NCBI GenBank assembly: GCA_009602735.1
Contig: WELA01001939.1
Coordinates: 636,579 to 700,578, forward strand
Source: Mesotaenium endlicherianum
Taxonomy: Eukaryota
Length of the DNA stretch: 64,000 bases
Reading direction: 5' to 3'
Below, one piece after another: positions 1 to 42,871 of this stretch (the first letter of the stretch is position 1; the number at the start of each line of letters is the position of its first letter). The translations under genes and the position numbers were made by a program. Under the pieces are notes generated by a model, which saw only the letters and a program-made list of their open reading frames with translations, did not search any database and was not told the DNA's origin.

Positions 1-44
1 GGGGGTGGATTTGGGGGGGGGGGGAGGGGAGAGGCGCTGCTCAC

Positions 45-4039: not shown

Positions 4040-4559
4040 TGTAGTGATTTAAGTTATAATATATTAATTTGCAAATATTTTAATGCTTTTGAATATATTT
4101 GGAGTAGTATTGTGTGGAGTCAAGTGTGAATAGATACTCTAGTGACGTGGTTCATGTCTTTGAACCTTCTAAGGCATTTTCGAAGTTAGAGGAAAGACCT
4201 ACAAGAACTCCATGTGGCAAAAGTCAAATGTGCCATTTTTAGGTCAAAAGGACATGTGTACATTATTCTAGAAAGAGGTGGCAAGTTTTGGGATGTGTTG
4301 GGTGCCAACACATCAACATGCACCTTCCTAGAGATTACTTATGTAGCAAGTATATAAACAAGAGCCAGAACATAGAAAGACATGGGAGAATCACTCTTGT
4401 ACTTGCCAAATTCCAGAAATATATTAACTTCCAAGAAGCTACCACTTGTGTTCAAAGATCCTTGTCTTGAATAGATAAAGTATTATATTTCACTAAGTAC
4501 TTTATCTATCTGTTTCACTACAGTGGTATCAAAGCTAGGCACTTTGGTAGCACAAGAAG

Positions 4560-12800: not shown

Positions 12801-15648
12801 GATCGTACTTGGGGAAATTTGTCCAGGTTTACCTCGACGATATCCTGGTCTATTCAAAGAACAAGGACAAACATTACAAGCACTTGGAAGTAGTGTTGCA
12901 AATCCTTCGTGAGCAACAGCTATATGCTGAGCTCAAGAAATGTTCCTTCCTGAAGGATGAATTGTTGTACCTCGGACATATAGTGGGTTCGAAAGGGGTG
13001 CGCCCTAACCCAGCCAAGATTGCGTGCGTCGTTGACTGGCCTGTCCCAAAAGATGTGCATAGTGTACGTTCATTCCTTGGGATTGCTAACTACTTTCGTA
13101 AGTTTATGCAAGGTTATTCAGTGATGGCCGCGCCACTCACTGCTCTGACAAGGAAAGGTAAGCCGTCCATTTGGGATGAGAATACGCAACATGCGTTCGA
13201 ACGCATCAAGCATGCACTCACTAATGCGCCACTTCTTTCATTAGCCGATCTCAACTTGCCTTACGAGTTAGTCGCCGATGCGTCTGGTGTTGGAATAGGG
13301 ACTGTTCTGCTGCACGCAAACAAGCCTATCAGTTTTGAGAGTCAATAGCTGACACCTGCCGAACAAAATTACTCCACAACAGAGCAGGAGCTCTGGGTAG
13401 TCATATACGCTTTAAAGACTTGGCGATGTTATTTGGAAGGCTGCAAGGGTTTGACAGTGGTTACGGACGACTGCCCAAATACCTTCTTTCAAATACAGCC
13501 AACGCTATCGAGGCGCCAGACGAGATGGTCTGAGTTCTTGCAACGATTCCACTTTAACTGGGCGTATCGCCCTGGTCGCAATAATGTTGCGGACCCTCTA
13601 AGTTGAATTCCCCTGCACCACTTGATGTTGGGGACTGTTGCTACTTTGCAAGGACGAAACAGTCAAGTTTCAAGGGCGGCCACCCTTGATTCCGCTGTAC
13701 CCCCCCAGACGATTGGCGTTGCACGGCCTGGTGACGTGGGCCAACCCAATTTGGGTAGCATGCAAACCTCTGAAGTACTTGACCTGCATCAACTATTTCA
13801 TGAGGGCTATTTAAAAAATCCATTTTTCCTAGATCTCCAGGGTACCAACTTGAGCGGTGTAGCCGTGACGAACTAATGCTTATCAGAAAAGTGTTAAGGA
13901 AACTCCATTTTTCCTTAACTATGGACGACATCCGCACACTCCCCTGACACGGGCGGTTTTCGGTCAGATGGGGATGTCAACCATGAGAGTGCCAAGTGCA
14001 CGTCTATTTGTCCATTCAAGAGGTGCACAAAAACGCGAAGCTAGCTTTAGCAGCTGCTTGAGATTGGCAGAAAAAGTTTGCTGACACGCACAGGATTGAG
14101 TTGAGTTTTCAAGTTGGCAATAAAGTACTTTTGCAAACTAAAATCTCCAACTCAAGCACCCAAAAAAGCGCAAGCATCTGCCTTGCTGGGTAGGCCCTTT
14201 TATCGTTATCGCAAAGGTTGGACCTGTTGCATACCGACTGGATTTGCCTAAATCCATGGACGAACGCATCCTGTGTTCCATGTTAGTTTACTTAAGCAGT
14301 TTAGATCCGATGGCCGCTATCAGCCGCAAGCACCGGAATTGGAACTCGCCAATAATGATAAGGCCTGGGATGTAGAGGAGGTCTTAGGACACCGCTACAC
14401 TCGTCATAAGCCTCCATGCGTGGAGCTTTTGATAAAGTGGCTCGATTATGATTCTAGTTGGAACTCCTACGAACCTTAGGACAAATCCTACTTAACTGTA
14501 AGGACCTGGTTCAACAATATTGGTTACGATGGGCTGCTGCTCAACAGCTTTGTCCCACGGGCAGTGTGCTACCTGAGCCAATTCATAAGCCAAGGAACAA
14601 ACGCAAAAGAGACGCGGCCAACTATTCGCTCTTTTCCGTCACTGTGATGATGATGCATAGTCCAATCGCTCACCAGTGTTTTCCGCTAGTCAAGGCTAGT
14701 ATTGACATATTCAGACTTAAAAGACGTACGCTTAACGAGGACGTTAAGTTCTTTTAAGGGGGGAGGAGTGTAACGATCCGAGCTATTGTAGGCGTATTTG
14801 GGACGTTTCCCCAATTACCTAAAGTACGTTATACTATTTATTATATTATTTGATAAATGATTGCATCATATTCAATTCGTCAATTGGCGAAACGACCGAG
14901 ATACTATTGCAAAAAGCGTTGTAACGTTACTTGACTACTTCGCAAAAGTACGACATAATTATTCATGAAGGTACTTTGATTAATTATGAGATTATAACTT
15001 AATAAATCACTGAGTGATTAAGTTGATTTGATTGTCATTATTTCGGATAATGCACAGTCACAGATTTCGCATTTACGACCAGTCGTTAATACGAAGAAAG
15101 AAACGTAAAAGTCAAACGACATATAATATGCAAAGCAGCTTTGCATCCGAGCAGATTCGAACCCGCGACCTGTCATTTGAAACGTTCACACCTAACCGAT
15201 TGGCGAAGTAGTTTTCATAACTACCGGTTCATGACGAAAGCACGTGTACGCGACTCCGCGAACAGTCGCAACTTTTCAAAAGGTCGCGTGAACGCGAATA
15301 CGCCCGTTTGGCGTGAAACGGGTTTTCGGAAACTGTCGAAAAGTCTCCAAACGGCCAAACGGCGAGTTTCGAGCATTCGGCCAAATGGGTCGTCCGTTCA
15401 CGTTGAACATGAACCAATGCCCTAGGTGGTGACTCAAAGCACTCCAGTGTCTCATGTCGTGCAAGTATTTATACTTGCAAGAGTCATTGTGAGTGCAACT
15501 CTCACAAGCACACATTCTACATTAGTTTTCATTTTTGCTTTCTCGAGGATTTGTCAATTTGCACAAGTATATACATTTCCTTTCCACTTCAATTAAATAT
15601 TCCTTGAATACCGAGGAAAAGATCCTCTCGAAAAGCAGAAACGTTACA
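9883..15648 (+). mobile_element. Family-C Ty3/Gypsy chromovirus, degenerate; 5' LTR truncated (~9883-10299), 3' LTR 14769-15648
   Basis: 9883-10299 matches 15243-15648; PBS TGGTATCGGAGC at 10301; PPT AAGGGGGGAGGAG before TGTAACGATCCG at 14769. Confidence 0.85.
11502..14479 (+). pseudogene. Family-C pol (protease, RT, RNase H, chromodomain); most of the integrase core is deleted near 13.95 kb
   Basis: [45 protein letters not shown]...LLIKWLDY; frameshifts and stops. Confidence 0.9.
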
Positions 15649-16195: not shown

Positions 16196-17911
16196 GCTCC
16201 AAGACGTCGCTTGTTCTGTTGGGGGAATAATGTAGTGATTTGAGTTATAATATATTAGTTTGGTTTTATTTTATTGCTTTTGAATATGTCTAGAGTAGTA
16301 TTGTGGTATCAAGTGTGAATAGATACTTTAGTGACTTGGTTCATGTCCTTTAAACCTTCTAAGGCACTTTCGAAGTTAGAGGAAGGACCTATAAGAACTC
16401 CATGTGGCAAAAGTCAAATGTGCCATTTATAGGTCAAAAGGACATGTGTACTTTATTCTAGAAAGAGGTGGCAAATTTTGGGATGTGTTGGGTGCCAACA
16501 CATCAATATGCACCTTCCTAGAAATTACTTATGTAGCAAGTATATACTTAAGAGCTAAAACATAGAAAGATAGGGGAGAATCACTCTTGTACTCGCCAAA
16601 TTCCAGAAATATATTAACTTTCAAGAAGCCATCTCTCTTTCAAGAAGCTACTATTTGTGTTCAAAGATTCTTGTCTTGAATAGATAAAATATTGTATTTT
16701 ACTAAGTACTTTATCTATCTATTTCACTACAAGCTCATCCAACTAATCATCTTCAGCCTGGTCTTCCTCAATCGCATTGTAGGAACCATGTGGCTTTTTG
16801 ACAACCTTAGCTACTAGAGCACTATTCTGACGCTTGTGGTTGAACTGCTGTTGATCCCAAGTATAAGTATCTCGAATCAAGTCAGCCAACTTCTCATACT
16901 TTTTCTCAGCAAAATGGCTTGATACCTCAGATTTCAAGCCAAACCTGAAGTATGCTATCTTATACAGCCCCGGCAATGCGGGTGGTTTTATTATGTTCTC
17001 CTGAAATTTTTAAGCATACTCTGCAATTGCAGTGGTCTGCTTTGGTGTCAGGGATATAATTGTTTATAGATAGCTTTCTCCCGCTAATTGATGACATCAA
17101 ACTTTTCATGCATTTGCTCAACGAACTCTTTCCAAGAGGGGTCACTACGTTGGTTAACATTACGCTCTTCTTTATAGAAGAGCCACCAGTTTGCTGCGTT
17201 GCCCTTCAGCAAAGCACCGATGTGTCTGATCTTCTCATAATCTTGCATGTTTGGATAGTTGTCCAGCCACTGCGCTACATCATCGAGAAACTTTATGAGG
17301 TGATACTTTTTGTTTCCCTCAGGTTCCTAATCCTGAGGTGGCTTTGGCTTTGGCCTATACTAGGCCCTCTGTCACCACCAATATTGTTAAAACCTAATTG
17401 GTCCTATGCACGTAGCAATTCCATCATAATCCTCTTGTCCTCCTGTTGAGACTGATACATCATAGTCATCTGAGATTGCATTTGACAAACAAAGCACCCA
17501 TATCAATATTCTGAGGTGGCAACGCAAACATAGCAGCAGTGGCGGCATTGATTTGCTTGGCAGCAGTTTCGGTATTTCCTCTTGTTGCTGCATTTGCAAT
17601 TCCTGCTCCACTCAACTATCAATTTAGCTGACCAAAAGGTATTGTCTTAACCCCAGCAAGAGGTTGGTTTCAAAGATTGGCCCTTTCTGCCATCATCTTA
17701 TCAACCGTTTTGTTATGAGCCAGATGCCTTCTTCCGCCCTTTGCATCCTCCTCTGCTTTAGCTTGATGCTCAGCTTCTTTTCTGATGCGTTCTTCTCCAG
17801 CTTGCTGGGCTCTTGTTGTGGCAAAGGTTGCCACCTCTTTTGCAACTTCTCTATTTGCTGTATCGGCTAAAGCTTCTAAATAAGTGCAAGATCCAAAGAT
17901 ATGACTCTCGG

Positions 17912-19394
17912 TGAAAGGGACAGAGGGCCCTAGTGGAAGCGTAGTGACTCACGAGGAAAAGAACTAGTTGCAATCATACTAAAGAGTGCAGCGACATATC
18001 ACTAAGAAAGCTTGGGAAAATTACTCAACACTTTGAGTAGCAAGAAAGTGCTCACAAATAATGTAGGATAAAAGGCCTTGTCATTACAAACTCGCAGAAA
18101 TTTACAGAATGAAAATTGATAAGAAATGAGAAAGTTACGCCTATTTATAGTTTTCTTACCTAAGTCCTCCTCTCTAGTGTAATGAATCAGTATATTAGTG
18201 GATATAATATTCATTTAAATATAATACTTAATTAAGTTCAGCCTGCTGAACTTTAGTTAATAGTCAGTCTGCTGGACTTTACATAATTATCAGTTTAATG
18301 ACTCAGTAAAAAGCAGCAGGCTGAAAGTCCATATAAGTCAGCTTGCTGACACATTCTTTGACAGCAAGCTTTTTCCGTACTCGGTAGCAGCGAACTTCCT
18401 TGATATGCATCTAAGTGCGATATGCTAGATGAATAGCCAGATGACATCCCTATGATGGATGGCTATTCGGGATGATGGGAGATGGCGGTGGATTTGGTTA
18501 ACCGAGGTCCTACCAACGTGGTTAACTCCCGGGTAGGCGGTGCCATCGCACTGACCGTTGAACAGTAAACTCATTCCATGTACATATGCTAGGCATTGCC
18601 CTCGAGTTCGGCATTCGGAAACGAGGCCAACTCTCTTGTACAGCTTACTGAGAGAGATCTGAATCCAAGGCGAGAAGCCATTGATACGCACTGTCTTCTA
18701 ACCTTGCTTATGTATGAGTATACTGATTTGCATTATTGATGCTAGTTTACTCTCATTTGACTGACGAGTATTATTCATTGCTAGTGCGTTGTCCTTTTGC
18801 CGTTTAAACATTTAACGGAAAGTACCATAAAGATTACTTGCTGATATAAAGATCTTTATTAATTGTTAATCGCCTATTTGGTAAGTCGATTCATTTCATC
18901 TAGGCGGGAGGGTCGCTTAGCAACGGACTTTCCTAAGTGTTTGTCAAATCATCCCTTCCAAAATATTTGTGAGTAAGCCAGATTAGTCTCATCAGACGTG
19001 TCGGGCCGATTTGACGTCCACATGCATGCATCGAAGTATCTATAATATACTAACTTAGATGCGGTAGATTAATCCGAAACTTCTAGATGAATAGACCCGG
19101 TCGGCACTACGGGTCAGCCAAAATTACGTGAAAATTCGGATACACTCTAACGGCCTAGATCGCTCGACGCAGTCGATCAATCCGACGGTCGCGCTCACCG
19201 CGAATTAAGGACAGTCGTCAACCGACCTCAAAATTAATTAAACTTCGAAAATCCATAACTCTTTGAATACTTAACCAAATTCGATGAACTTTATATCAAA
19301 ATGATCACAAAAAACATGCACTCTAAACCACTATGCAATCAAAGCAGACTTTCATGGAATTAAAAAATGCACTTTATAAAGCTATGACCTTACA
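17912..19394 (-). mobile_element. Family-E solo LTR with TSD CTCGG, containing a family-A solo LTR
   Basis: TG...CA termini; CTCGG at 17907-17911 and 19395-19399. Confidence 0.88.
18178..18898 (+). mobile_element. Family-A solo LTR with TSD TCTAG
   Basis: TGTAATGAATCAG...GATTCATTTCA; TCTAG on both sides. Confidence 0.93.
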
Positions 19395-20736
19395 CTCGGC
19401 CTGTCCTTCAATGTTATCATCATTCTCACCCTCCATTTTCCGAGAGTTGCTAGTTTGGACCAGTTCGTGTAACGACTTCACAACCTTGGATCCAGATGTC
19501 CTCTTAGTAAGCTATACAAAGAGTTGGCCTCGTTTCCAAATGTCAAATTCGAGGGCATAATCTAATCTATGTACATGGAATGAGTTTACTATTCAAGGGC
19601 AACTGCGATGGCACCGCCTACTCAGGAGTTAACCACGTCGGTAGGACCTCGGCTAACCAAATTCACAGCCATCTTCATCCCGAATTGCCATCCACCCAAG
19701 TGGTGTCATCTGACCACTCATCTAGCATATCACACTTAGTAGCATAATTAGGCAGTTCACTGATATCGAGTACGACAGTCAGCTGACTGCCAAAGAATGT
19801 GTCAGCAAGCTGACGTATGGAGAACTTTAGCTTGCTCCTCTCGACTGAGTCATTATATATTGAATAAGACTAAGAAGTCCAACACACTTTATACTAACTA
19901 AAATTCAGCGGTATGAACCTAATTAACTATTATAATTTCTAATGAATATTATACTATCAGTATTGATTCATTACACATTGGAACTTGTGGGTGCCCCGTG
20001 GGAAAGCATTAGTCTCGACTTTGTCGTGGATTTGCCTACCACCGAAAGGGGACAAATGGGGTGTTGAAGATCGTTAATCATTTCACTAAGGTTGCGCACT
20101 TTGTGGCCACTAAATCATCACTTGATGCAAAAGAGACGGCTCGTCTCTTCATGAATCACGTGTTCAAGTTACATGACATGCCTAAAGAAATCATAAGTGA
20201 TCGTGATAGTACATTCACAAGCCACTTAAGGACGTTTGCATGAATTTTGGCACGAAACTAAAGATGTCAACGAGCTTCGATCCTCAGACCGATGGCCAGA
20301 CAAGAACGAATGAATCACGTGCTTCAAACTGTTTGTTCGGCATAATAAAAATCCTCGCCGAGACAACTGGGGTTTCTAAGGCATTATGTGAATTCTCACG
20401 AAGGCAACTGGGATACCCTCATTTCAATTGTCGAGTTTGCCGTAAATAATGCTCATCAGGTAAATGTTAAAAAAATTTCAGTTTTTCTTAATTATGGAAA
20501 ACACCCGCACACTCCGCTGACTGCGGTTGTTCCTAGTCAGATGAGGGTCTCAACCATGAGAGTACCAAGTGCACGCCAATTTGTCTATTCTCTGCAAGAG
20601 GTGCACAAACAAGCAAATTTGGTGTAACGATTCGCCGCGTGGTCGGATGCGGCGCGTGCGACACGTCGCCAAAAGGCGACAAAAGTGTCGGTTTGAATTG
20701 TATGAGTACAATTGGCGCGCGATCGAAGTACCTCAA

Positions 20737-21453
20737 TGTAATGAATCAGTATATTAGTGGATATAATATTCATTTAAATCTAATAGTTAATTAAGTTCAG
20801 CCTGCTGAACTTTAGTTAATAATCAGTCTGCTGGACTTTACATAATTATCAGTTTAATGACTCGGCCGAAAGCAGCAGGCTGAAGTCAACTTAAGTCAGC
20901 TTGCTGACACATTCTTTGACAGCCAGCTGACTTCCGTGCTCGGTAGCAGCGAACTGCCTTGATATGCATCTAAGTACGACATGCTAGATGAATGGCCAGA
21001 TGACATCCCTATGATGGATGGCTATTCGGGATGATGGGAGATGGCGGTGGATTTGGTTAACCGAGGTCCTACCAACGTGGTTAACTCCCGGGTAGGCGGT
21101 GCCATTGCACTAGCCGTTGAACAGTAAACTCATTCCATGTACATATGCAAGAATTGCTCCCGAGTTCGGCATTCGGAAACAAGGCCAACTCTCTTGTACA
21201 GCTTACTGAGAGGGATCTGAATCCAAGGCGAGAAGCCATTGATACGCACTGTCTTCCAACCTTGCTTATGTATGAGTTTACTGATTTGCATTATTGATGC
21301 TAGTTTACTCGCATTTGACTTACGAGTATTATTCACTGCTAGTGTGTTGNCCTTTGCCGAAAACCAGTTAACGGAAATACCATAAAGATTACTTGCTGAT
21401 ATAAAGATCTTTATTAATCGTTAATCGCCTATTTGGTAAGTCGATTCGTTTCA
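20737..21453 (+). repeat. 5' LTR of the intact family-A element
   Basis: Direct repeat of 28809-29528. Confidence 0.95.
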
Positions 21454-21454
21454 G

Positions 21455-21466
21455 TGGTATCGGAGC
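21455..21466 (+). promoter_or_regulatory. Primer-binding site, tRNA-iMet type
   Basis: TGGTATCGGAGC one base after the 5' LTR. Confidence 0.88.
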
Positions 21467-21487
21467 AGTTATCACAGTCTTCTTTGT

Positions 21488-22966
21488 ATGGTAAGGACAA
21501 GGTCTCAAACTAGCAACTCCCGAGACATGGAGAACCAGGATAACGAGAATGTCAAAAACCAGGCGGAAAGCCATGTAGCGGGAAACCGTACCTATTCGGA
21601 AGCAGTAGCGGATACTGCAGCTAGGGAGGCTGCAGATGAGGCAGCTGCTATTGCCTCAGTCGCAGCTCAGCAAGCTGAGGAGGAGATAGCCAGACTAGAA
21701 GCTGAACAAGTAGCAAAGGCCGCTGAAGATATACAAAGGAGGGAAGGACAGCCAGCTGACGAGCGCACTGTTGAAGAACTTATGGCATCAAGGGCCAATG
21801 TTCTGAACCCACCTCCTGCCGTACAACTCAATGTACCCCTAGGTCAAATACGTGACCGGCTGAATGCGGCAGGAATTGCTGCTGCAGGAGCGAGAGGGAT
21901 TGTTGAGGACACTACTCAGCGAGTAGATGCCAATGCTGCTGCTGCATTTGCTAATCTACCACCCCAAAATGTAGACTTGGGAGCATTGTTCGTTCAGATG
22001 CAGTCGCAAATGGCGACCATGTATCAGTCCCAGCAGGAGGACAAAAGAATCATAATGTCCCTACTCCGGGACAGAGACCAACTGGGGTCTCACACCACTA
22101 GTGGTGGTGGCCGAGGGCCTAGTAAGCCCAAGCCGAAACCTCCCCAGGACTATGATCCTGAGGGAAACAGAAAATATTACCTGATCAAGTTTCTCGCGGA
22201 TGTTGAGCAGTGGCTGGAGAACTACCCAGAACTGCAAGATTACGAGAAGGTCAGGCACACCGGTGCGCTACTGAAAGGCAGTGCCGCAGACTGGTGGCTT
22301 TACTGGAAGGAAGAGCGTAAGGCTCGGCAACTCGGTGACCCTACGTGGGTAGAGTTTGTCGAGAAGTTGCATGAGAAGTTTGATGTCATCAACCAGCAGG
22401 AGAAAGCTATCTATGCGATGATCTCCCTGACACTGAAGCAGACCACTTCAGTTGCTGAGTTTGCTCAAAAGTTCCAAGAGAACATGATGAAGCAGCCTGA
22501 TTTGCCAGAACGGTATAGGATAGCATACTTCAGGTATGGCTTGAAATCCGAGGTCTCTGGTCATTTTGCTGAGAAAAAGTATGAGAAACTGGCTGACTTG
22601 ATCCAGGATGCTGACGCCTGGGATCAGCAGCAGTTCAATCACAAGCGCCAGAGTAACGCTTTGGTGTCTAAGATTGTCAAAAAGCCCCACGGTTCCTACA
22701 ATGCAGTTGAAGGAGACCAGGCTGAGGATAATCAGGGTGATGAATATGAGTATGAGGACAATGCTATTCAGTCTAGAGGTAGAGGTGGTCCCCCTCGAGG
22801 TGGCTATGGAAGGGGTGGTGGTAGGACTAAGCCGAGACCAGCCTCAGCAAAATCTACTTGCTACCATTGTCAGCAGAAAGGCCACTACAGAGAACAGTGT
22901 CCGGTCAAGCACCTGCCTAAGGTCGAGAGAAAAGACCAGCCTTTAAAAGACAGCAACAGTCAGTAA
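21488..22966 (+). CDS. gag: Gag, 492 aa, with retrotransposon gag core and CCHC zinc knuckle
   Basis: LKGSAADWW...TWVEFVEKL core; RGG tract; [14 protein letters not shown] knuckle. Confidence 0.93.
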
Positions 22967-25900
22967 TCCAGTCTACTGACTGTGAGGATGCTAGAGATAG
23001 TGAGTCGTCACTAGCTGCCCTCGTAGCAGGTATTATGGGTCCTGCTGAACTGGATTCACTATGCATGCCTGACAAACAGATAAAGGAGACCATCAGTAAT
23101 ATAGACGTCCAGAGAGTGCACACTCTGGATGCTCTTGTTCCACCTGATGTCCAACATTTCTTTGCTACGTCAGGAGAACAATGCGAAAGTCAGGAAAAGA
23201 CAGTCCCCCCTATCCTACTGCATTGCATGATTGCAGGTAGGAAGGTGAGGGCATTTGTTGACGGAGGGGCGTCACATACTTTTATCCACAAGGACTTAGT
23301 TAAGCGGCTAAGGCTGCCTACTGTCACCCAAGGGAATAGAAAAATATTCCTTGGAGATGCCTCAAGTATCCCGGGAGGAGTTATAACCAAGCCTATTGAG
23401 GTCCAGTTAGGTTCTGGCATTGCAGTTCTAACTGAAACGCTTACATTTGAGGTACTCAACACTGGCTTTTATGATCTCGTGCTAGGCAGGTCCTGGCTTA
23501 ATAGACATCAAGCTGAAGTGTGTTGGAGCAGAGGTACAGTTAAAGTGAGAGGAGCCAGTGATGGGCAGACTGACTTGGCACCCACCAGTGCTCTTCCTCT
23601 TGTCCTGTGTGGATGGCAAATGAAGGAAAAGAAGAGGCTTCCAGAAGGATGCAAGTTGCTGAATGCAATGGAGTTCGTCAAAAGCTGGAACCAGAAGGAA
23701 GACAGAATGTTCTGTCTGCTGCTAAGAGAGGTACCTCCTCAACCTGAAGAAGTGGTTGAGAAAAAGGTAAGCCCTCCGGAGCACCCTACTGCTGCAAAAA
23801 TTGTTGCTCAGTACACTGATGTGTTTAACATGCCTCCAGGACTACCCCCTAAAAGGGAAGTAGATCATAGGATTGATCTATTACCTGGTAGCCAGCCACC
23901 CTGGCAACGCACTTATGGCTTGTCTTATTTGGAGAGCGAGGAGTTGAAAACACAGATTGCAGAGCTGGAGGAAAATGGTTACATTTCTCCCAGTAAATCA
24001 CCGTACGGCGCACCTATCCTATTTGTTAAGAAAAAGGATGGCAGTATGCGGATGTGTGTGGATTACAGAGCCCTGAACAGAATTACAGTAAAGAACAAGT
24101 ATGCTTTACCCAGAATCGAGGACTTGCTTGATACCCTGTCTGGCGCTAAGGTGTTCAGTAAGATAGATCTCAAGAGTGGTTATCATCAAATCAGAATTGC
24201 TGAGGGGGATGAACACAAGACTGCTTTCCGCACACGTTATGGACACTATGAGTTCAACGTGATGCCATTTGGACTGACTAATGCTCCTGCTACCTTTATG
24301 GGTGCTATGAATGACATTTTCAGACCTTATTTGGATAAGTTTGTGCAAGTTTTCCTGGATGATATTTTAATTTTCTCTAAAGATGAAGCTCAGCACACTG
24401 AACACTTAAAGAAAGTGCTGGACACTCTGCGGAAAAATCACTTGTATGCTAAAATGAGCAAGTGTGATTTCTTTAAGGAAAGTATTGAATTCTTAGGCCA
24501 CGTTGTCAGTAAAGAGGGCATCAGTGTGGATCCTAAGAAAGTCCAGACCATAAGGGACTGGCCAGTACCACAGTCTGTCTCTGAAGTTAGATCCTTCCTC
24601 GGGTTGGCTAACTACTATAGGAGATTTATTGAGAATTATTCCACAAAGGCCAGTAAACTGACTGACCTTACTAAGAAAGACATCGGGTATGTGTGGGGGG
24701 AAGAGCAGCAGGCTGCCTTCCAGACCCTTAAAGATGCCCTTTGTTCTGCCCCAGTGCTAGCCGTGTATGACCCCAGCAAACCGGTGCAGGTGGTTACTGA
24801 TGCCTCTGATTTTGCCATGGGTGCTATTTTGTTGCAGCCTGCTGACAAAACCACAAAGGATGGTAAGGTACGGCAGGAGTGGCATCCTGTGTTGTATGAG
24901 TCTATGAAATTTAATCCAGCGGAGATTAATTACTCAGTGCATGATAAAGAGCTGCTAGCTATCATTCATGTACTCAAACAGTGGAGAGCATACTTACATG
25001 GTAAAGCTTTTAAGGTGATTACAGATCATCTAGCTCTGACCCACTTTCAGAAGAAGTCCAAGCTGTCGAGGAGGGAGAACCGCTGGAGCCAGATGCTGGA
25101 GCAGTTCCAAGTCCAGATCGACTACAAACCAGGGAAGTTGAATCCTGCTGATGCACTCTCTAGAAGACCTGACTTGCAAGAAAGGAACTTTAGTCAGCAT
25201 GCTGTAGATAAAGTCCTGTGTGCACTCACTTCACTAAAGGTGAAAAAGTCCTTCCTTGAACAACTTAGGAAAGCCTACCTTTCTGACCCAACATTTGAGC
25301 CCAGCCCCACTACTGGTGTGTGTCGTGCTACTGCACTCGGGTATAAGCTCAAGGGAGGGGTCTGGGTGACTGAAACCACTTCAGGCAGGCTGAAGCTGGT
25401 CATTCCTAATAACTTGGAAATAAGGTCTCTCTTACTGAGTCAAGCTCATGACAGTCTCCTGGGTGGACATTTGGGGCAGGCCAAAACTGTTGGCAAACTG
25501 GCAAAACATTATCATTGGGAGGGGTTACCCCGGGAGGTCTTGAAATATGTCAAGTCCTGTGACCAGTGTCAGAGAAATAAGTCTCGGCACACACCACCCG
25601 GAGGTCTCTTGCAACCGCTACCCATCCCAGCGGGACGCTGGGAAACTATATCCATGGACTGGGTGGTCTCACTACCAAGAACTGCCAACGGGCATGATTC
25701 AATACTGGTAGTCGTGGATAAACTGACAAAAATGGTCATTTTTATCCCCACAACTGTCAAAGTGACTGCACTCGAAACAGCGAGACAGTTTTACAACCAT
25801 GTAGTATGCCAACATGGGCTCCCTTCTAATATCATCTCAGACAGAGACTCAAAATTCACCTCTAAGTTCTGGAGAGCTTTAATGGGGTTAATGGGAGTCA

Positions 25901-26751
25901 AACAGCTGCTCAGCACAGCAAACCACCCTCAGACTGATGGGCAGACTGAAAGAACTAACCGAGTTCTGCAGGAGGTGCTGAGAGCATATATTAACCAAAA
26001 ACAAGATAATTGGGATGACCTGTTGCCTCAAATTCAGTTTGCGGTCAACAGTGCGGTGCACGCGTCAACGGGCAAAACTCCTTTTGAACTCAGCCTGGGT
26101 AGAGTCCCTAAGTCTCCTCTAGATGTGCTAGGGGAATCTTTAACTCACCCTGAAGGGATTGACAACCCGGTCTCCCTCCAGTTAACTCAGGAGTTTGCTG
26201 ACACCCTGTCAGAAGTCCAACGAAACTTGCACACGGCCCAAGAAAACCAACAAAAATACGCTAATCAACACCGTCGGGAACTGACATTTTCCAAGGGGGA
26301 TTTAGTCAAACTGCATTCTCAGCACCTGTACCTCCCTGGTGTGGTCAAGAAAAAGCTTGGCCCTGTCTGGGTCGGTCCATATTCGGTGGTCCGTCGTGTC
26401 GGTCAGAATGCTTACAAACTGAACATGTCAGCTGAATACAAGGGGCACCCGGTCTTTAATGTCTCCTTCCTGGAACCGTACATCAAAGGTGATACACTGT
26501 TCACAGGTCGGTTCCCTGTCCAACCGGGACCGGTCCCCGCTGTCCGGGACGGCGACCCTGAGGAATATGAGGTCGATGAGATTTTAGACGCTCGCTCGGT
26601 CCGTCGATCGTCTAAATATGTCATGAAATACCTCATTCGATGGAAGGGTTACGATGCCTCTGGGGACACTTGGGAGTTTAAGGACCACTTGACCAATGCC
26701 AAAGGGGCGTTGACACGGTTCCACCTTCGGGCCGCTGGAGTCCCTCCATAA
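22921..26751 (+). CDS. pol: Pol (protease, RT, RNase H, integrase, chromodomain); frame opens at 22921, first ATG 23035, -1 relative to gag
   Basis: [41 protein letters not shown]...CDQC, ISMDWV...SDRD...QTERTN, WVGPY, YEVDEIL...YLIRWKGY. Confidence 0.96.
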
Positions 26752-27018
26752 CTGTCATTTCAGTTGACACGGGAAGGTGACAGGCGGTCCTGTCTCCATT
26801 TAAGTTGGAGGGGAAAATATATGACAGTTAGTGAGCGAGAGCGATAAAAACACACTCATACGTTTATGTGTAGCGCATCGCAACTACGTCAACTTTTAGC
26901 AATCATCCTGTAAGGTAAACAGCAGCGAAGCCACTATACTAAATACTAACATACTTCCTGCAATCCCTATGACAAAGGTCCATATCCTACTAACTTGTGC
27001 CCTGGTTACATGTGCAGG

Positions 27019-28695
27019 ATGGCGCCCACCACACAAAAGGAGGACAGAAAGCGCAAGGCAGAAGAAGCCAGGAGGACAATGGAGCAATACCAGAAGGAGC
27101 TGGCGGCGACGTCCCTCACCAGGAGAGAACAAGAAAGGGTCCGCAAGCAACAAGAGGCGGCAGAAGAGGCACAGAGGAAGAAGGATCAGGAAGCGGAAAA
27201 CCTCAGGAAGGCTGAGGAGGAGAGACAGAAGAAACAGCAAGAAGAAGCGGCAGCGGCAGAAGAGGAGAAAAGAAAAAAGATTGAAGCGGACAGACAGAAG
27301 AGCTTGGCCACTTACAGGTATACTGTGGTGGGTGGCCAAAACTTCGATAACCTGAAGGAAGCATTGCTGGCAGCCCAGGAGATCAACAGGCTGGAACAGA
27401 CAACACTGCTACAGAAGGAAGGAGCTACAGCACTGGACAGGTACATCGAGACACACACCGGCGTGGTCCTTTACGAAGATTATGCTAAGATGGTGGGCTA
27501 TACAGCAGAGCAGGCCCGGTATCTCGCAGATGATTCAGAGGACAAGCCGGTCCCCATACCGGGAATAGTGGGAGATCAGAGACTCATCCGGATGGTGAGC
27601 ATGCGGCCCGATAGCTTTAAGGATACGGTATTCTACCTCACACTCCTGCCAGCTTACAATGAAGTTGAGAGAAGGAGCTGGGAGTACTTGGCCAGGGAAG
27701 CAGGACAGCAGATGTTCTCTCCCCACTGGTTCCCGTGTAAACTGAGGAAGGCTGAGCACGGACCCCAGTACTACCAGCAGCCAACAGACTGGAGGTGGAT
27801 GACCGTCACAAATAAGAAGCAGGAGTGTGACCGAGCCCAACCGGATGACTTCCACTATGGCCTAGACGGCTATCTCATCCTACCACCTCACATTGCCCCT
27901 TGGGACCCCAGGCTGAATGGATGCCTGAGCAATATGAATGCAGAGACCAAGGAACATAGGAGGAGGGGAAGAGAGTACTTCTCTAAGGGAAAGCATGCCT
28001 TTGTCAAATGGGCAAAGAATGCAGGCCGGATAGATATCAGTAGGCTGAAGGCCAAGCAACCTCCAGCGCGCCCTAAGAAAGGGAGGTCGGTAGACTACTC
28101 CATGTCTACTAGGGAGCAGGACGACTTAGTGGACGAGACCCCTACTCTCTCCGAAGAGGAGGATGAGGAGGATGAGGAAGGAGAACAAGGCAGAGGAGAA
28201 GCATCAGCAGCAGGTACTCAGGATACCCAGGGACAGGCAGTGGCACTTCCTAAAGAACCACGATCAGGTGTGTGGAATGTGATCCCCGTTATGGCGACAA
28301 CTGGACCCCGCGCTCGCTCCCCCAGCCCACCTGCCCAAGCAGGGGAAGAAGCTGATCTGACTGTACTGGGCAGCAGACACAGACAGAAATCCCCAGAGGA
28401 CAGGGGTGCCAGAAGAGGGACACGCGGGTGGGCCAGAGGTATGCCAGCCTCCCCCTCCGCTCAGGGGCATGTACCTCTAGCCAATGTATTTCAGCATCCT
28501 ACTGGAATGCCTGTCTATGTGGGAATCAACACCCAAGTGGTTGAAGAGCAGGCCACCATCCTCCGTTCTCCTCGAGGGCCAACTTTAGAGCAAACAGGGT
28601 TCTTTAGAAGGCCAGCTGACAGACCTAGAGGGCTGTCCAGATCTAGGTCCAGATCTCCGTCTCCTGATCCTGAAGCCCCAGGAACAACCCCTTAA
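27019..28695 (+). CDS. Extra sense ORF3 of the family-A element, ~558 aa, unknown function
   Basis: Uninterrupted frame between pol and the 3' LTR; E/K/R/Q-rich coiled-coil-like N-terminus, aromatic-rich middle, acidic tract and RSRSRSPSP tail. The start could also be ATG 27010. Confidence 0.75.
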   Translation: MAPTTQKEDRKRKAEEARRTMEQYQKELAATSLTRREQERVRKQQEAAEEAQRKKDQEAENLRKAEEERQKKQQEEAAAAEEEKRKKIEADRQKSLATYRYTVVGGQNFDNLKEALLAAQEINRLEQTTLLQKEGATALDRYIETHTGVVLYEDYAKMVGYTAEQARYLADDSEDKPVPIPGIVGDQRLIRMVSMRPDSFKDTVFYLTLLPAYNEVERRSWEYLAREAGQQMFSPHWFPCKLRKAEHGPQYYQQPTDWRWMTVTNKKQECDRAQPDDFHYGLDGYLILPPHIAPWDPRLNGCLSNMNAETKEHRRRGREYFSKGKHAFVKWAKNAGRIDISRLKAKQPPARPKKGRSVDYSMSTREQDDLVDETPTLSEEEDEEDEEGEQGRGEASAAGTQDTQGQAVALPKEPRSGVWNVIPVMATTGPRARSPSPPAQAGEEADLTVLGSRHRQKSPEDRGARRGTRGWARGMPASPSAQGHVPLANVFQHPTGMPVYVGINTQVVEEQATILRSPRGPTLEQTGFFRRPADRPRGLSRSRSRSPSPDPEAPGTTP

Positions 28696-28808
28696 GGTGA
28701 CACGCTGAAGAGGCAGTCAGTAAGGGAGGCTGGTCAGGTTCAGTTCCCTTATTTAAAATTTCTGCAGTTTAATGTTGTCGAGGCGACAACAAGTTAAGTT
28801 GGAGGGAT

Positions 28809-29528
28809 TGTAATGAATCAGTATATTAGTGGATATAATATTCATTTAAATATAATAGTTAATTAAGTTCAGCCTGCTGAACTTTAGTTAATAATCAGTC
28901 TGCTGGACTTTACATAATTATCAATTTAATGACTCGGCCGAAAGCAGCAGGCTGAAGTCAACTTAAGTCAGCTTGCTGACACATTCTTTGACAGCCAGCT
29001 GACTTCCGTGCTCGGTAGCAGCGAACTGCCTTGATATGCATCTAAGTGCGATATGCTAGATGAATGGCCAGATGACATCCCTATGATGGATGGCTATTCG
29101 GGATGATGGGAGATGGCGGTGGATTTGGTTAACCGAGGTCCTACCAACGTGGTTAACTCCCGGGTAGGCGGTGCCATCGCACTGACCGTTGAACAGTAAA
29201 CTCATTCCATGTACATATGCTAGGCATTGCTCTCGAGTTCGGCATTTGGAAACGAGGCCAACTCTCTTGTACAGCTTACTGAGAGAGATCTGAATCCAAG
29301 GCGAGAAGCCATTGATACGCACTGTCTTCTAACCTTGCTTATGTATGAGTTTACTGATTTGCATTATTGATGCTAGTTTACTCTCATTTGACTGACGAGT
29401 ATTATTCACTGCTAGTACGTTGTCCTTTGCCGTTTAAACAGTTAACGGAAAGTACCATAAAGATTACTTGCTGATATAAAGATCTTTATTAATCGTTAAT
29501 CGCCTATTTGGTAAGTCGATTCGTTTCA
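28809..29528 (+). repeat. 3' LTR of the intact family-A element
   Basis: Preceded by PPT AAGTTGGAGGGAT; followed by TSD CTCAA. Confidence 0.95.
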
Positions 29529-30425
29529 CTCAAGTTATCTTTTTGTTCATATTGCTACATTGGTATCGAAGCGCAAACGTACGCAATCGTGTACAGGAGA
29601 CGAGGGTCCAAATCCTGCGGGGTGCGAAACTCGTTGACGGTACAACCGTATGGCAATCTTTGGATTGCACAAAGAAAAGACACTATCTCGGAACAACGTT
29701 CCTCGCGCCGCCGCGGCCTAAGTTCTTGGGACGTGCACACTTGTAGGTGGGAGGAATGTAACGATCCGCCGCGTGGCCGGATGCTGCGCGTGCGACATGT
29801 CGCCAGAAGGCGACGGAAGTGTCGGTTTGAATTGTATAAGTACAATTGGCGCGCAATTAAAGTAATTTGTTCAAACCGCTGCAGTTGGCTTTAGCCGCTG
29901 CTCGAGATTGACAGAAGAAGTTTCCTGATACGCACACGAAAGAGCTTAGCCTTTAAATCACCAATAAAGTATTTTTGCAGATTAGAAACTTACAACTCAA
30001 GCATCTAGGAAATTGCAAGCTTCTGCCTTGCTAGGTAGGCCCTTTTATCGTCAGTGCAAAGGTTGGACCAAATGCCAATCGACTGGGTTTGCCTAAGTCC
30101 ATGGGGCAAACGCATCCTGTGTTCCCTGTTAGTTTATTGAAATTGTTTCGATCTGACCGCCGCTATCAGACACGAGTACCAAAATTGGATCTCAAACAAG
30201 ATGACATAGCCTTGGAAGTAGAGGAGGTCATTGGACATTGCTACACCCGTCATAAGCCTCCACGCGTGGAACTTTTGATCAAATGGCTCGACTATGATTC
30301 CAGCTGGAATTCGTAAGAACCCCAAGACGAAATCCTACATAATTGTAGTGACGTCGTTCAACAGTATTGGTTACGATGGGCTAAAGCTCAATATCTCTTT
30401 GCCCAAGATAGTGTGTTAGTAGGCA

Positions 30426-34202: not shown

Positions 34203-34921
34203 TGTAATGAATCAGTATATTAGTAGATGTAATATTCATATAAATATAATAGTAAATTAAATTCAGCCTGCTGAACTCTAGTTAATAATCAGTCTGCTGG
34301 ACTTCATATTTAATATCAGTTTAATGACTCAGCCGAAAGCAGTAGGCTGAAGTCAACTTAAGTCAGCTTGCTGACACATTCTTTGACAGCCAGCTGACTT
34401 CCGTACTCGGTAGCAGCGAACTCCCTCGATATGCATCTAAGTGTGGTATGCTAGATGAATGGCCAAATGATATCCCTATGATGGATGGCGATTCGGGATG
34501 ATGGGAGATGGCGGTGAATTTGGTTAACCGAGGTCCTAACAACGTGGTTAACTCCCGGGTAAGCTGTGCCATCGCATTGGCCGTTGAACAGTAAACTCAT
34601 TCCATGTACACATGCTAGGATTGCTCTCGAGTTCGGCATTCGGAAACGAGGCCAACTCTCCTGTACAGCTTACTGAGAGAGATCTGAATCCAAGGCGAGA
34701 AGCCATTGATACGCACTGTCTTCTAACCTTGCTTATGTATGAGTTTACTGATTGCATTATTGATGCTAGTGTACTCGCATTTGACTTACGAGTATTGTTC
34801 ACTACTAGTGAGTTGTCCTTTGCCGTTTAACCAGTTAAGGGAAAATACCATAAAGATTACTTGCTGATATAAAGATCTTTATTAATTGTTAATCGCCTAT
34901 TTGGTAAGTCGATTCATTTCA
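34203..34921 (+). mobile_element. Family-A solo LTR with TSD CACAT
   Basis: Full LTR termini; CACAT on both sides. Confidence 0.93.
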
Positions 34922-40363: not shown

Positions 40364-41308
40364 TGCTGCCTTCTTTGCAGCTTCTTTGGCTCCTGCATCA
40401 TGCAGCGTTTTTAAGTAGGTACATTTTCAAAGATGCGGCTTTCATCTTGCTCTTTCTCAATGTTATCATTGTCCTCACCCTCCATTTCACGAGAGTTGCT
40501 AGCTTGAGACCCAGTCCTTACCATACAAGACGACTGTGCTAGCTTGCTCCAATAACTCTGAAATGAATCGACTTACGAGTAGGCGATTAATAATTAATGG
40601 AAGATCTTTATGTGAGCAAGTAATCTCTATGGTATTTTTTGTTAATTGATTTAACAACAAAAGACAAGACACTAGCAGCGAACAATACTCATAAGTCAAA
40701 TGCAAGTAAACAAGAATCAATCATGCAATGAGTAAACTTATACATAAGCAAGGTTGGAAGACAGGTCGCATCAATGGCTTCTCGCCTTGAATTCAGTTAT
40801 CTCTCAGTAAGCAGTACAAGAGAGTTGGCCTCGTTTCCGAATCCAAACTCGAGAGCAATACCTAGCATATGTACATCGAGTGAGTTTATTGTTCAACGGC
40901 AAGTGCAATGGCACCGCCTACCCGGGACTTAACCTCGTCGGTAAGACCTCGGCTAACCAAATCCACAGCCACCTCCCATCATCCGGCATTGCCATCTACC
41001 TTAAGGGTGTCATGTGACTATTCATCTAGCACACCACGCTTAGATGCATAACTACGCAGTTCGCTGCTACTGAGTACGGCAGTCAGCTGACTGTCAAAGA
41101 ATGTGTTAGCAAGCTGACCTAAGTCAGCAAGCTAACCTAAGTTAACTTCAGCCTGCTGCTCCCAGCTGAGTCATTAAACTAAGTATTAAACATCCACCAG
41201 ACTTAATATTAACTAAAGTTCAGCAGACTTTACTTATTTGACTATTATTTTTATTAATAATTGCATTTAAATGAACATTATATCTACTCAATATACTGAT
41301 TCATTACA
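40364..41308 (-). mobile_element. Degenerate family-A 5' LTR (40559-41308), decayed PBS and gag start
   Basis: LTR homology; the minus strand then reads ATGGTAAGGACTGGGTCTCAAGCTAGCAACTC, like the gag start at 21488. Confidence 0.82.
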
Positions 41309-42871
41309 ACAATCTTGTTAAGAACTCATGGCAACGTGGAATGCTTGCCCCGCTTACGTTTGTTTTCGGAATTGCTGCCTACTCTCACGCTTGAGTCCTC
41401 CTCCACCTCCACTACTCGCTCTTCATCTTCCTGTGAGCTCGAAGAAAGGGAGTCTCCACCGTCGCCCATCATCACTAATACCCTAACTACAAATACTTAG
41501 AAAATATTTAGCCACATTGGAAGTTATGGAGGCTCCAGGCTCCTGGAAAAATTGGAGTGCATTCAGCATCGAAGTTGTAAACTGGTAGCAGTGAACGAGG
41601 TGGTGACGAAGCTGGTGGGCTATGGGTAGTTAATCTAGTGCGTTAGTGTCTACCAGATTGACGTTATTCGTCGTAAGGTGATTAGAATTATATCCAACTT
41701 TACGTGTTAAAACACAATTGTTCCCCCGCCAGCCACTTCCCGCGTAGTCGGCGATGATTGGATATGTTTTCACGATTTCTTTAGTCAGGTTGTCAGAGAC
41801 AACATAGGTTTTGCTTTCCACACACGTCATCGATTTATTTGTCGTTTTTCCCATCGACCAACGTATTTAGCACGTTACGCGTCAAGGTCGGCGTAACACG
41901 TGTGTACGTCCACGTTATACGGATACGACAAAAATGTATTCTATAACTAGGTGTGTTAGGGTCATACACAGCAAGCATAAGGGCAGAATACACAGCATAT
42001 TTAAGGGTCCCATATGTGTTTCTTAGTAAGGTAAGTCAGTTTATTGACCTTAGTAGAATGGTTCTCAATAACTTGCTAATCTTGTGATGAGCAATTGGCC
42101 CTCTCAAAAGGCGCTTTCCAGTTATTTAAAGACCTATCTTGTGGTGAAAGAAGTAAAAACCTTACAATGAAGGCTACTCATTGTACTATCGATGATCCTT
42201 TGGAGCGCGGTGGGTAACACTTGATTATGATCATATACAAACTTGCGTGCAAACAAAATCCCGTTTTCTATGGGACGGGCCAAGTTATGGATCTCACAAA
42301 GTCATAAGTTTTGGATATATTGTAAACACGGCGAATTATGAAACCAACGGACTTCATAAGTAGGAAATTCCGTTGGAATTTGGCTTTCGGGTGCTAGGAT
42401 TTCCATCGCCAATCAGTTGATCGTTCTACTTTAGAAGTTAGTTGGCAGTCTGCGATTTAAGTAATATAATATGCCATTTAATCATAATAGCTCTTCTGCT
42501 TGAGATTGGAAAAATGGTGGTAATGACCAGCCTAGGCCACTTGAGAAGTTGACCGTCTGCGCGGTCAGAAGGTGTGACTTTGACCAATTTTGACGTACAG
42601 TATTGCACGGGCCACGACTGGCCACGACACAAAAGTTGTTCTTGGAAGTCGAGCAGCTAACGATGACGGGGGTTTGGCAACTCGAGTCTTCACCTTGCTG
42701 GAACGCAATTGCGCGCCATAAACGCGGACGCTCGCACGATGGTAACTGGGGCGTCCAGTCGTCCACTGCATTTTGTCAGCTGCAACGTGATGAACGTCGC
42801 AAAAGCCAGATCAGCCGACAACAATCTGAAGATGTAATCATATCAAAATTCACAGACAACTGTGTCCAGAC

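What the first reader, a model, noticed from the sequence alone, without database searches (positions are those of the whole stretch)
26752..28808. Chromovirus with an intact extra 558-aa ORF in the env position
Seen: 1.7 kb of open sense frame between the chromodomain and the 3' LTR, with a coiled-coil-like N-terminus, an aromatic-rich central domain, a basic patch (RPKKGR), an acidic run and an RS/SP tail. I see no signal peptide or transmembrane helix. Established: extra 3' ORFs are typical of Athila/Tat/Ogre, SIRE and errantiviruses and less so of chromoviruses. Inference: a nuclear accessory factor (anti-silencing or RNA processing) or a captured host gene.
Basis: partly seen in the sequence, partly recalled or inferred. 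Interest (0 to 1): 0.7.

Follow-up and report, generated by a model that had tools for sequence, protein, structure and literature searches.

The report
Spliced orphan gene in algal retrotransposon
A jumping gene, likely from a green alga, carries behind its usual genes an extra gene unlike anything in the databases searched; selection has kept it intact across copies, it is likely read from a spliced RNA, and its protein likely works in the nucleus on the element's own RNA rather than as a viral envelope.

Summary
Confirmed. A complete chromovirus (LTRs 96.5% alike, CTCAA target duplication, tRNA-Met primer site, gag, pol, aromatic-cage chromodomain) carries a sense 558-codon ORF (27019-28695) between chromodomain and 3' LTR. 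It is multi-copy and selected: of 35 ORF variants displayed, 16 of 19 common ones are synonymous (5.4 expected, P=4e-7). A 103-nt GT-AG intron with a TACTAAC branch point ends one base before the ATG, and one contig of a probable DNA run lacks exactly this intron. The gene also sits between two copies of the polypurine tract (PPT); related contigs leave at the first PPT into an LTR-like start, so the gene looks like an add-on module. The protein has no homolog in any library searched, no membrane segment, a charged single helix (not a coiled coil), an unfoldable 250-residue core, and basic, acidic and RS stretches. Three polyA RNA runs, mostly of diverged copies, gave no reads on it. Sense extra ORFs are known in chromoviruses (18% of Tekay) but are not listed for algal or moss clades. 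Best guess: a nuclear Rev/CERV-like regulator of the element's RNA (0.4); rival: anti-silencing factor.

The parts
20732..20736 (+). Target-site duplication CTCAA, left copy
   Evidence: the same 5-mer stands at 29529-29533
20737..21453 (+). 5' LTR (TG...CA)
   Evidence: 96.5% identical to 28809-29528 over 720 nt
21455..21466 (+). Primer-binding site, tRNA-Met type (type recalled from plant elements, not matched to a tRNA here)
21488..22966 (+). gag (Ty3 capsid, Retrotrans_gag, weak CCHC knuckle)
22942..22948 (+). T TTA AAA heptamer in gag phase inside the gag/pol overlap; predicted -1 frameshift site
   Evidence: the frameshift is inferred
22921..26751 (+). pol: protease, RT, RNase H, integrase, SH3, chromodomain (26566-26724) with Y/W/Y aromatic-cage residues
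26800..26812 (+). First (internal) PPT copy, 13 nt identical to the 3' PPT; preceded by a small GC hairpin 26779-26794 (fold z -1.4, not significant)
26813..26914 (+). Leader after the first PPT. Its word at 26822-26834 is shared with the TG-starting sequence into which contigs of runs X6, X8 and X4 diverge at 26813; likely relic of another LTR's start, possibly the gene's promoter and first exon
   Evidence: (loose ends); promoter role inferred
26915..27017 (+). 103-nt GT-AG intron: donor AAG|GTAAAC, TACTAAC at 26944-26950 and 26988-26994, acceptor TGCAG one base before the ATG
   Evidence: table 5 (X1 contig skipping exactly 103 nt, GT..AG)
27019..28695 (+). Extra ORF, 558 aa, orphan, under purifying selection
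27031..27321 (+). N-terminal charged ER/K helix (residues 5-101), with RKRK and KRKK
27301..28053 (+). Aromatic-rich core (residues 95-345): no homolog, no confident model
28069..28185 (+). Basic patch RPKKGR (351-356) and acidic run (379-389)
28636..28665 (+). RS/SP tail SRSRSRSPSP (540-549)
28773..28807 (+). Hairpin 28773-28791 and 3' PPT 28794-28807; the hairpin recurs before another family's LTR at 33657-33629 (-)
   Evidence: z -3.3, 0 of 200 shuffles
28809..29528 (+). 3' LTR
29529..29533 (+). Target-site duplication CTCAA, right copy

Best explanation
This is an intact chromovirus carrying a selection-maintained, non-envelope extra gene of no known family, likely translated from a spliced RNA, whose protein likely acts in the nucleus on the element's own RNA to help the unspliced full-length copy be exported or kept unspliced, as Rev and CERV do. 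Shown: the element, the ORF, its many copies, the excess of synonymous change, the lack of homologs and of membrane features, the GT-AG intron signals, one intron-less contig and the duplicated PPT. Inferred: (1) the gene came in as a module behind the old 3' end of the element (first PPT plus the start of another LTR) by recombination between LTR elements, and brought or kept the second PPT and LTR; (2) removing the intron strips two upstream ATGs (26969, 27010) and leaves ATG 27019 as the start, while the packaged genomic RNA must keep the intron; (3) basic patches take the protein to the nucleus, the RS tail links it to splicing or export factors, the charged helix is a spacer, and the orphan core binds the element's RNA.
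For: Selection: 16 of 19 variants at 5% or more of X1 depth are synonymous against 5.4 expected from mutation types (P=3.9e-7; 15 of 19 at third positions). All 35 displayed ORF variants give 21 synonymous against 9.5 (P=2.7e-5). The 16 rarer ones look neutral (5 of 16). Multi-copy: 6708 X1 contigs lie on the stretch, 760 of them under 90% alike; 20 of 24 listed runs, from 7 studies, hold half or more of its words. The only listed indel seen in more than one run (26941) lies in the intron (table 4). Splicing: 1 of the 14 displayed X1 joints is GT..AG; it is the deepest (473.5 against 60-163) and removes exactly 26915-27017. Random deletions here end GT..AG in 0.9% of cases, and with a branch motif in 0.06%. 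It is the element's only YAG with TACTAAC upstream; the four other hits carry a looser motif. Module: 13-nt PPT duplication; contigs of three runs leave at 26813 and others enter at about 28769 with different upstream sequence. Not Env: hydropathy maximum 0.73, no sequons. Precedent: CERV of C. elegans Cer1 is an env-position, spliced, nuclear, phosphorylated protein needed for genomic RNA export (PMC10309623, passages). Plant LTR elements generally lack introns, and their RNA export has not been studied directly (PMC12786077, passages).
Against: Nothing tests the function: no homolog or fold (pLDDT 34.5 for the core, under 50 over 95-378), and no sequence link to CERV or Rev was tested or seen. 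The RS stretch is only 10 residues, and nuclear localisation is predicted from motifs. Three polyA raw-read runs (6-12% of each read) gave zero depth over 26942-28753, while LTR, gag and pol had low cover. Only 1 of 189, 8 of 264 and 2 of 156 laid reads were 99% alike or more, so these samples mostly express other copies, but expression of the gene is not shown. The intron-less joint rests on one contig with 23 nt on its short side, laid at 80% likeness, in a run only guessed to be DNA. The variant table showed 40 rows, with 257 more hidden; the 5% cut was chosen after seeing them, and only 3 common variants fall in the core. In run X17 contigs carrying over half the local depth have frameshifts and a stop in the first 92 codons, and old X1 copies carry gaps. 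Relatives without the module appear to exist and replicate, so it is not essential.
Confidence: 0.4

Rival explanations
1. Same real, spliced, selected gene, but the protein is a nuclear anti-silencing or chromatin factor (VANC-like in role) that keeps its own family transcribed; the acidic run would bind histones and the core would bind DNA.
For: Selection, basic patches and acidic run. Algal retrotransposons, including chlorophyte chromoviruses, have repeatedly gained epigenetic domains (bioRxiv 10.64898/2026.05.21.726589, passages). The module's depth relative to the PPT/LTR edge is much higher in X1 (about 0.4M against 0.7M) than in X17 (about 60 against 4521), a hint of a burst; depth is no copy number.
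Against: No Pfam hit to a methyltransferase, AlkB, plant mobile domain or Transposase_28. Only 3 cysteines, no zinc-finger pattern. It does not account for the RS tail.
Confidence: 0.25
2. A cytoplasmic or particle-associated accessory protein (capsid scaffold, nuclear-import helper of the pre-integration complex, or movement factor) whose long charged helix is a spacer.
For: Long confident helix 35-101. Env position and spliced expression resemble subgenomic structural genes. Atlas leads at 0.80-0.81 to plant-virus coat proteins are at chance level.
Against: No membrane segment or signal peptide; helix lacks a coiled-coil hydrophobic face; atlas scores all under 0.9.
Confidence: 0.13
3. A host gene transduced with its own promoter and 5' intron, now amplified by the element and kept for its original cellular role.
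For: A 5'-leader intron with a canonical branch point is a cellular-gene layout. LTR elements do transduce genes (PMC7264820).
Against: No homolog in 5.8 billion or 1.84 billion proteins, and no polyA read at 92% or more on the ORF in three runs. The review notes transduced ORFs are usually in one or a few copies; this one is in many. The host genome could not be searched.
Confidence: 0.1
4. A functionless passenger ORF kept open only by recent amplification of one master copy.
For: Copies are young (LTRs about 3% apart); no expression seen; broken copies exist in X17.
Against: 16 of 19 common variants synonymous, P=4e-7; the shared indel avoids the ORF; the intron ends exactly at the start codon.
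Confidence: 0.05
5. An Env-like envelope or fusion protein.
For: Position, sense orientation and likely spliced expression match env.
Against: No signal peptide, transmembrane helix or sequon; 3 cysteines.
Confidence: 0.02

Closest known systems
Forward 3' extra ORFs (eORF-3'F, aORF-3S) of plant Ty3/gypsy elements, including Tekay chromoviruses (PMC6317226; PMC7264820)
   Same: Sense ORF over 250 codons between pol and 3' LTR, present in many copies, heterogeneous and mostly without known domains.
   Different: REXdb lists them for Tekay (18% of 782) but not for Chlamyvir (44), Tcn1 (1500), Galadriel, Reina or CRM. This element has an aromatic-cage chromodomain and groups apart from the named seed-plant sequences. 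No membrane segment, unlike env-like aORF-3S. A leader intron and a PPT-bracketed module were not found in the searches run.
CERV of C. elegans Cer1 (PMC10309623)
   Same: Env-position ORF unlike Env, no outside homologs, made from a spliced mRNA, about 520 aa with a helical N-terminal part; nuclear and phosphorylated.
   Different: CERV is a Gag-derived N-terminal half spliced to the ORF, with a Cys finger and a G-protein-like domain. Here the intron is local and ends at the ORF's own ATG; no Cys finger; function untested.
GENE23 of maize Grande (seen only through the review PMC7264820)
   Same: Conserved accessory gene between pol and 3' LTR, nuclear protein, own internal promoter.
   Different: Grande's gene is antisense, and Grande is a Tat/Retand-type element, not a chromovirus (lineage recalled).
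Fungal chromoviruses with an 'add. ORF' (PMC2864245) and algal DAM/DNMT chromoviruses (bioRxiv 10.64898/2026.05.21.726589)
   Same: Chromodomain elements that gained extra coding capacity.
   Different: No methyltransferase or other known domain here; no detectable homology.
Central polypurine tracts of EVADE, Ty1 and HIV-1 (PMC7197481)
   Same: An internal copy of the PPT that could prime plus-strand synthesis.
   Different: Here it sits exactly where sister contigs go on into an LTR-like start, so it looks like the old 3' end; present use as a primer is untested.

Membership tests
Chromovirus (Ty3/gypsy) | PR-RT-RH-INT domain order in pol | tested here: met
Chromovirus (Ty3/gypsy) | Chromodomain at the integrase C-terminus | tested here: met
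   PF00385, E 2.1e-8, residues 1216-1268; Y/W/Y cage residues visible (cage positions recalled)
Chromovirus (Ty3/gypsy) | LTRs, PBS, PPT, 5-bp target duplication | tested here: met
Tekay clade (the chromovirus clade known to carry eORF-3'F) | Seed-plant range, chromodomain without aromatic cage, RT-RH placement | tested here: not met
   Cage present; PMC6317226 limits the cage to non-seed plants. In a 118-sequence RT-RH FastTree the 11 named seed-plant sequences fall outside a 102-tip clade (support 0.86) holding this element; no labelled Tekay reference was in the tree.
Chlamyvir or Tcn1 clade | Placement with labelled references; PBS and gag-pol layout | tested here: inconclusive
   Nearest named tips are Haematococcus (support 0.51); best identity over most of the query 51%. 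A tRNA-Met PBS fits Chlamyvir (41%) better than Tcn1 (5%); overlapping gag/pol frames fit Tcn1 (60%). The REXdb fasta was too large to read.
Env / env-like aORF-3S | Signal peptide and transmembrane helix | tested here: not met
   Maximum Kyte-Doolittle 19-mer 0.73, charged N-terminus, no sequons
Env / env-like aORF-3S | Sense ORF between pol and 3' LTR, expressed by splicing | tested here: inconclusive
   Position met; splicing rests on intron signals plus one intron-less contig; no RNA junction read
Described plant eORF domains (Athila ORF-1, Transposase_28, plant mobile domain, DUF390, AlkB) and TE methyltransferases | Pfam match | tested here: not met
   only a compositional Borrelia_P83 hit on the helix (14.8 bits, cut-off 33.6) and DUF6462 at E 0.11; list of domains
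Rev/CERV-like RNA export factor (functional class) | Nuclear, binds unspliced element RNA, needed for its export | not testable with these tools
   Only motifs and layout support it
Transduced host gene | Cellular homolog outside retroelements | tested here: not met
   the host's own genome was not available

The most novel reading that the evidence does not exclude
An algal chromovirus has become a 'complex' retroelement: it picked up, as a swappable PPT-bracketed module driven from a relic LTR, a spliced gene for a new protein fold that controls splicing or export of its own RNA. This would be a plant-lineage counterpart of Rev/CERV, and it may have powered a burst of the carrying subfamily.
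Probability: 0.25. Interest if true: 0.8.

Novelty: new variant of a known kind. Interest (0 to 1): 0.5.

Why it matters
Extra ORFs of plant LTR retrotransposons are common but almost none has a known job; the REXdb survey even asks whether they have one (PMC6317226). Here selection is measurable, the way the gene is likely expressed (a leader intron ending at the ATG) and gained (a module behind the old PPT) can be read from the sequence, and relatives with and without the module appear to coexist. That makes it a natural test of what such a gene does. RNA export of plant LTR elements has not been studied directly (PMC12786077), so an element-encoded export or splicing factor would open that question. 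The 250-residue core may also be a new fold.

Tried and rejected
No host genome is held, so no copy count or branch-wise dN/dS. Homology: none among 7992 and 3592 word-sharing candidates of 306-977 aa (longer and shorter proteins were not searched there); 0 at E<=0.001 in 1.84 billion representatives. None in metagenome contigs (81 pattern matches, 0 confirmed) or viral contigs (5, 0 confirmed). PDB best E 0.95; PHROGs best E 0.18, NCBIfam best E 3.9; ESM atlas best 0.84 and 0.88, under the 0.9 lead level; no match in 120 pol homologs. No second copy of the ORF in the window. AlphaFold from one sequence gave no usable core, so no fold search was run. A scan for pol relatives with flanks gave 2 short contigs that end before the 3' region. 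Run search: no RNA holder listed. The X17 joint 26788-27090 (CT..AC, depth 609, 30-nt side) was not interpreted; it may be a chance match of an abundant relative. A Gag-ORF fusion as in CERV has one phase-compatible donor in gag (22534) but no joint supports it. The hairpin before the first PPT is not more stable than shuffles. Paper searches for a second or duplicated PPT in retrotransposons gave 0 papers. 'chromovirus + intron + spliced + additional ORF' gave 3: one read in passages without such a case, two seen as listings only. Steinbauerova 2011 and REXdb additional files 1 and 3 were not seen and may list comparable elements. No complex prediction was run.

Full report
The element. Window 20737-29528 is one complete Ty3/gypsy element. 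Its LTRs (20737-21453, 28809-29528) are 96.5% identical over 720 nt and flanked by a CTCAA duplication. A tRNA-Met-type primer site follows the 5' LTR (type recalled). gag (21488-22966) overlaps pol (22921-26751) in the -1 frame, with a T TTA AAA heptamer in gag phase (frameshift inferred). Pol holds protease, RT, RNase H, integrase, SH3 and a chromodomain that keeps the aromatic-cage residues. PMC6317226 (passages and section 9) limits that cage among plants to algae, mosses and club-mosses. The top named pol hits are Haematococcus and Closterium; the best identity over most of the query is 51%. In an RT-RH tree of 118 sequences (118 of 121; short matches dropped) the 11 named seed-plant sequences fall outside a 102-tip clade, support 0.86, that holds this element. 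I infer an algal or non-seed-plant host and a non-Tekay chromovirus; the clade is not resolved. No host genome was held.

The ORF is real. ATG 27019 to stop 28695 gives 558 aa. The other five frames hold 9-30 stops, and 1000 Markov simulations never exceeded 291 codons. The stretch is held by 20 of 24 listed runs in 7 studies; some of these may share a source with the window. In run X1, 6708 contigs lie on 26720-28830, 760 of them under 90% alike, so it belongs to a multi-copy family with old members.

It is under purifying selection. One search displayed 40 variant rows and hid 257; 35 lie in the ORF. Of 19 at 5% or more of X1 depth, 16 are synonymous against 5.4 expected from the mutation types (P=3.9e-7), 15 at third positions. 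Of 16 rarer ones, 5 are synonymous against 4.0 expected. All 35 give 21 against 9.5 (P=2.7e-5). The cut was set after viewing the table, and only 3 common variants fall in the core, so this is not a full dN/dS. The only listed indel seen in more than one run (26941) is outside the ORF. Against this: single X17 contigs, some carrying over half the local depth, show frameshifts and a stop in the first 92 codons, and five of the six longest displayed X1 records (about 81-86% alike) carry gaps. Dead copies exist, as expected.

It is likely spliced. Just upstream lies AAG|GTAAAC at 26915, TACTAAC twice (26944, 26988; 12 in the window against 5.2 expected) and TGCAG at 27017, one base before the ATG. 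One X1 contig skips exactly these 103 nt. It is the only GT..AG joint among 14 displayed for X1 (27 further joints hidden) and the deepest, 473.5 against 60-163. Random deletions here would end GT..AG in 0.9% of cases, and with a branch motif in 0.06%. If X1 is DNA, this is a reverse-transcribed spliced RNA. The joint has only 23 nt on its short side and was laid at 80% likeness, so it is good but single evidence. Splicing removes ATGs at 26969 and 27010. Whether the transcript starts internally or in the 5' LTR is open.

It looks like an added module. TTAAGTTGGAGGG stands at 26800-26812, 48 nt after the pol stop, and again at 28794-28806 before the 3' LTR. Contigs of X6, X8 and X4 match up to 26813 and then go on into a different TG-starting sequence that shares a 13-nt word with window 26822-26834. 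At the other end, contigs in all four runs enter near 28769-28773 with other upstream sequence. The simplest reading is that an ancestor ended pol-PPT-LTR at 26813, and that recombination between LTR elements added leader, intron, ORF, second PPT and the present LTR, leaving a relic of the old LTR in front of the gene. The first PPT may survive as a central PPT, a feature reported for EVADE, Ty1 and HIV (PMC7197481, passages); this is untested.

The protein. Residues 5-101 form a charged ER/K helix rather than a coiled coil. Residues 95-345 are aromatic-rich and probably folded, but AlphaFold without relatives gives pLDDT 34.5. Then come RPKKGR, an acidic run, a P/S/G-rich stretch and SRSRSRSPSP. 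There is no transmembrane segment, signal peptide or sequon, so it is not Env. No homolog turned up in Pfam, PHROGs, NCBIfam, PDB, the 5.8-billion and 1.84-billion protein sets, metagenome or viral contigs, or the ESM atlas.

Expression is not shown. Three polyA raw-read runs with the same species label as X1 (6-12% of each read) gave no depth over 26942-28753, with low, mixed-strand cover on LTR, gag and pol. Only 1 of 189, 8 of 264 and 2 of 156 laid reads were at least 99% alike, so these samples mainly express other copies and may carry few module-bearing ones. In X17, also organism A, module depth is about 60 against 4521 at the PPT/LTR edge, whereas in X1 it is about 0.4M against 0.7M (depth is only a hint).

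Mechanism. An element whose accessory mRNA is spliced must still package an unspliced genome. A basic, RS-tailed, non-membrane protein made from the spliced RNA fits a feedback regulator of splicing or export. CERV of Cer1 is the tested precedent: env position, spliced, nuclear, phosphorylated, needed for export (PMC10309623, passages). I give this 0.4; anti-silencing or chromatin factor 0.25; particle-associated factor 0.13; transduced host gene 0.1; passenger 0.05; Env 0.02. That the gene is real and selected I put at about 0.9; everything about its action is inference from motifs and layout.

Against what is known. REXdb found extra ORFs of 250 codons or more in 3372 of 8453 Ty3/gypsy elements, in 314 groups, only 21.4% with a known domain. 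Its additional file 5 lists forward 3' ORFs in 18% of 782 Tekay chromoviruses and none in the other chromovirus clades; its algal sample is small (44 Chlamyvir). The review PMC7264820 (main text read, parts 1-2 of 3) calls their origin and role unknown and notes the nuclear, self-promoted GENE23 of Grande. Fungal chromoviruses with an 'add. ORF' are drawn in PMC2864245 (two passages). PMC11963269, PMC12786077 and bioRxiv 10.64898/2026.05.21.726589 were seen as passages. So the arrangement is known in kind. What is new is the protein family, the algal cage-type chromovirus host, the leader intron with an intron-less copy, and the PPT-bracketed module, none of which turned up in searches. REXdb files 1 and 3 and Steinbauerova 2011 were not seen. 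Earlier scan notes show similar env-position orphans in fungi and Euglena (unchecked), none similar in sequence.

Verdict: observation confirmed, interpretation partly supported, new variant of a known kind, interest 0.5.

Noticed in passing
window 45450-47936 (+): One open frame encodes S-adenosylmethionine decarboxylase (E 6e-106) fused to an ornithine/arginine decarboxylase-type PLP enzyme (E 7e-72): two polyamine-pathway enzymes in one protein.
   Followed up: partly
window 3-1118 (-): Protein phosphatase 2C exon (E 1e-34) with an N-terminal MGCLSS sequence that resembles a lipidation motif (recalled).
   Followed up: partly
window 56851-57588 (-): Exon resembling a thylakoid-lumen PsbP-domain protein with transit peptide (recalled; no Pfam hit at 1e-3); suggests a photosynthetic host.
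   Followed up: partly
window 2720-41309: Dense nest of LTR elements: at least nine full or partial copies of this element's LTR family (e.g. 18178-18898, 34203-34921, 40559-41309 minus), a related gag at about 70% identity on the minus strand (16734-17909), and two other degraded chromoviruses (4551-9650; 10301-14473). None shows the extra ORF.
   Followed up: partly
window 33657-33602 (-) and 28773-28828 (+): The hairpin just before the 3' PPT is nearly identical (28 of 29 nt) before the LTR of another family, suggesting a shared cis-element for plus-strand priming or packaging.
   Followed up: partly
window 24837-24997 and 25432-26639: PolyA reads on the pol region are largely first-mate-plus (antisense in a usual stranded library), and three X23 reads skip 159 nt with CT..AC ends, an antisense splice in related copies.
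   Followed up: no
window 26788-27090: An abundant X17 contig (depth 609, about ten times the module's) joins 26788 to 27090 with CT..AC ends, then leaves at 27119; unexplained.
   Followed up: no
window 53395-54140: An assembly gap of about 740 N bases; a single N also lies in the 5' LTR at 21350.
   Followed up: no
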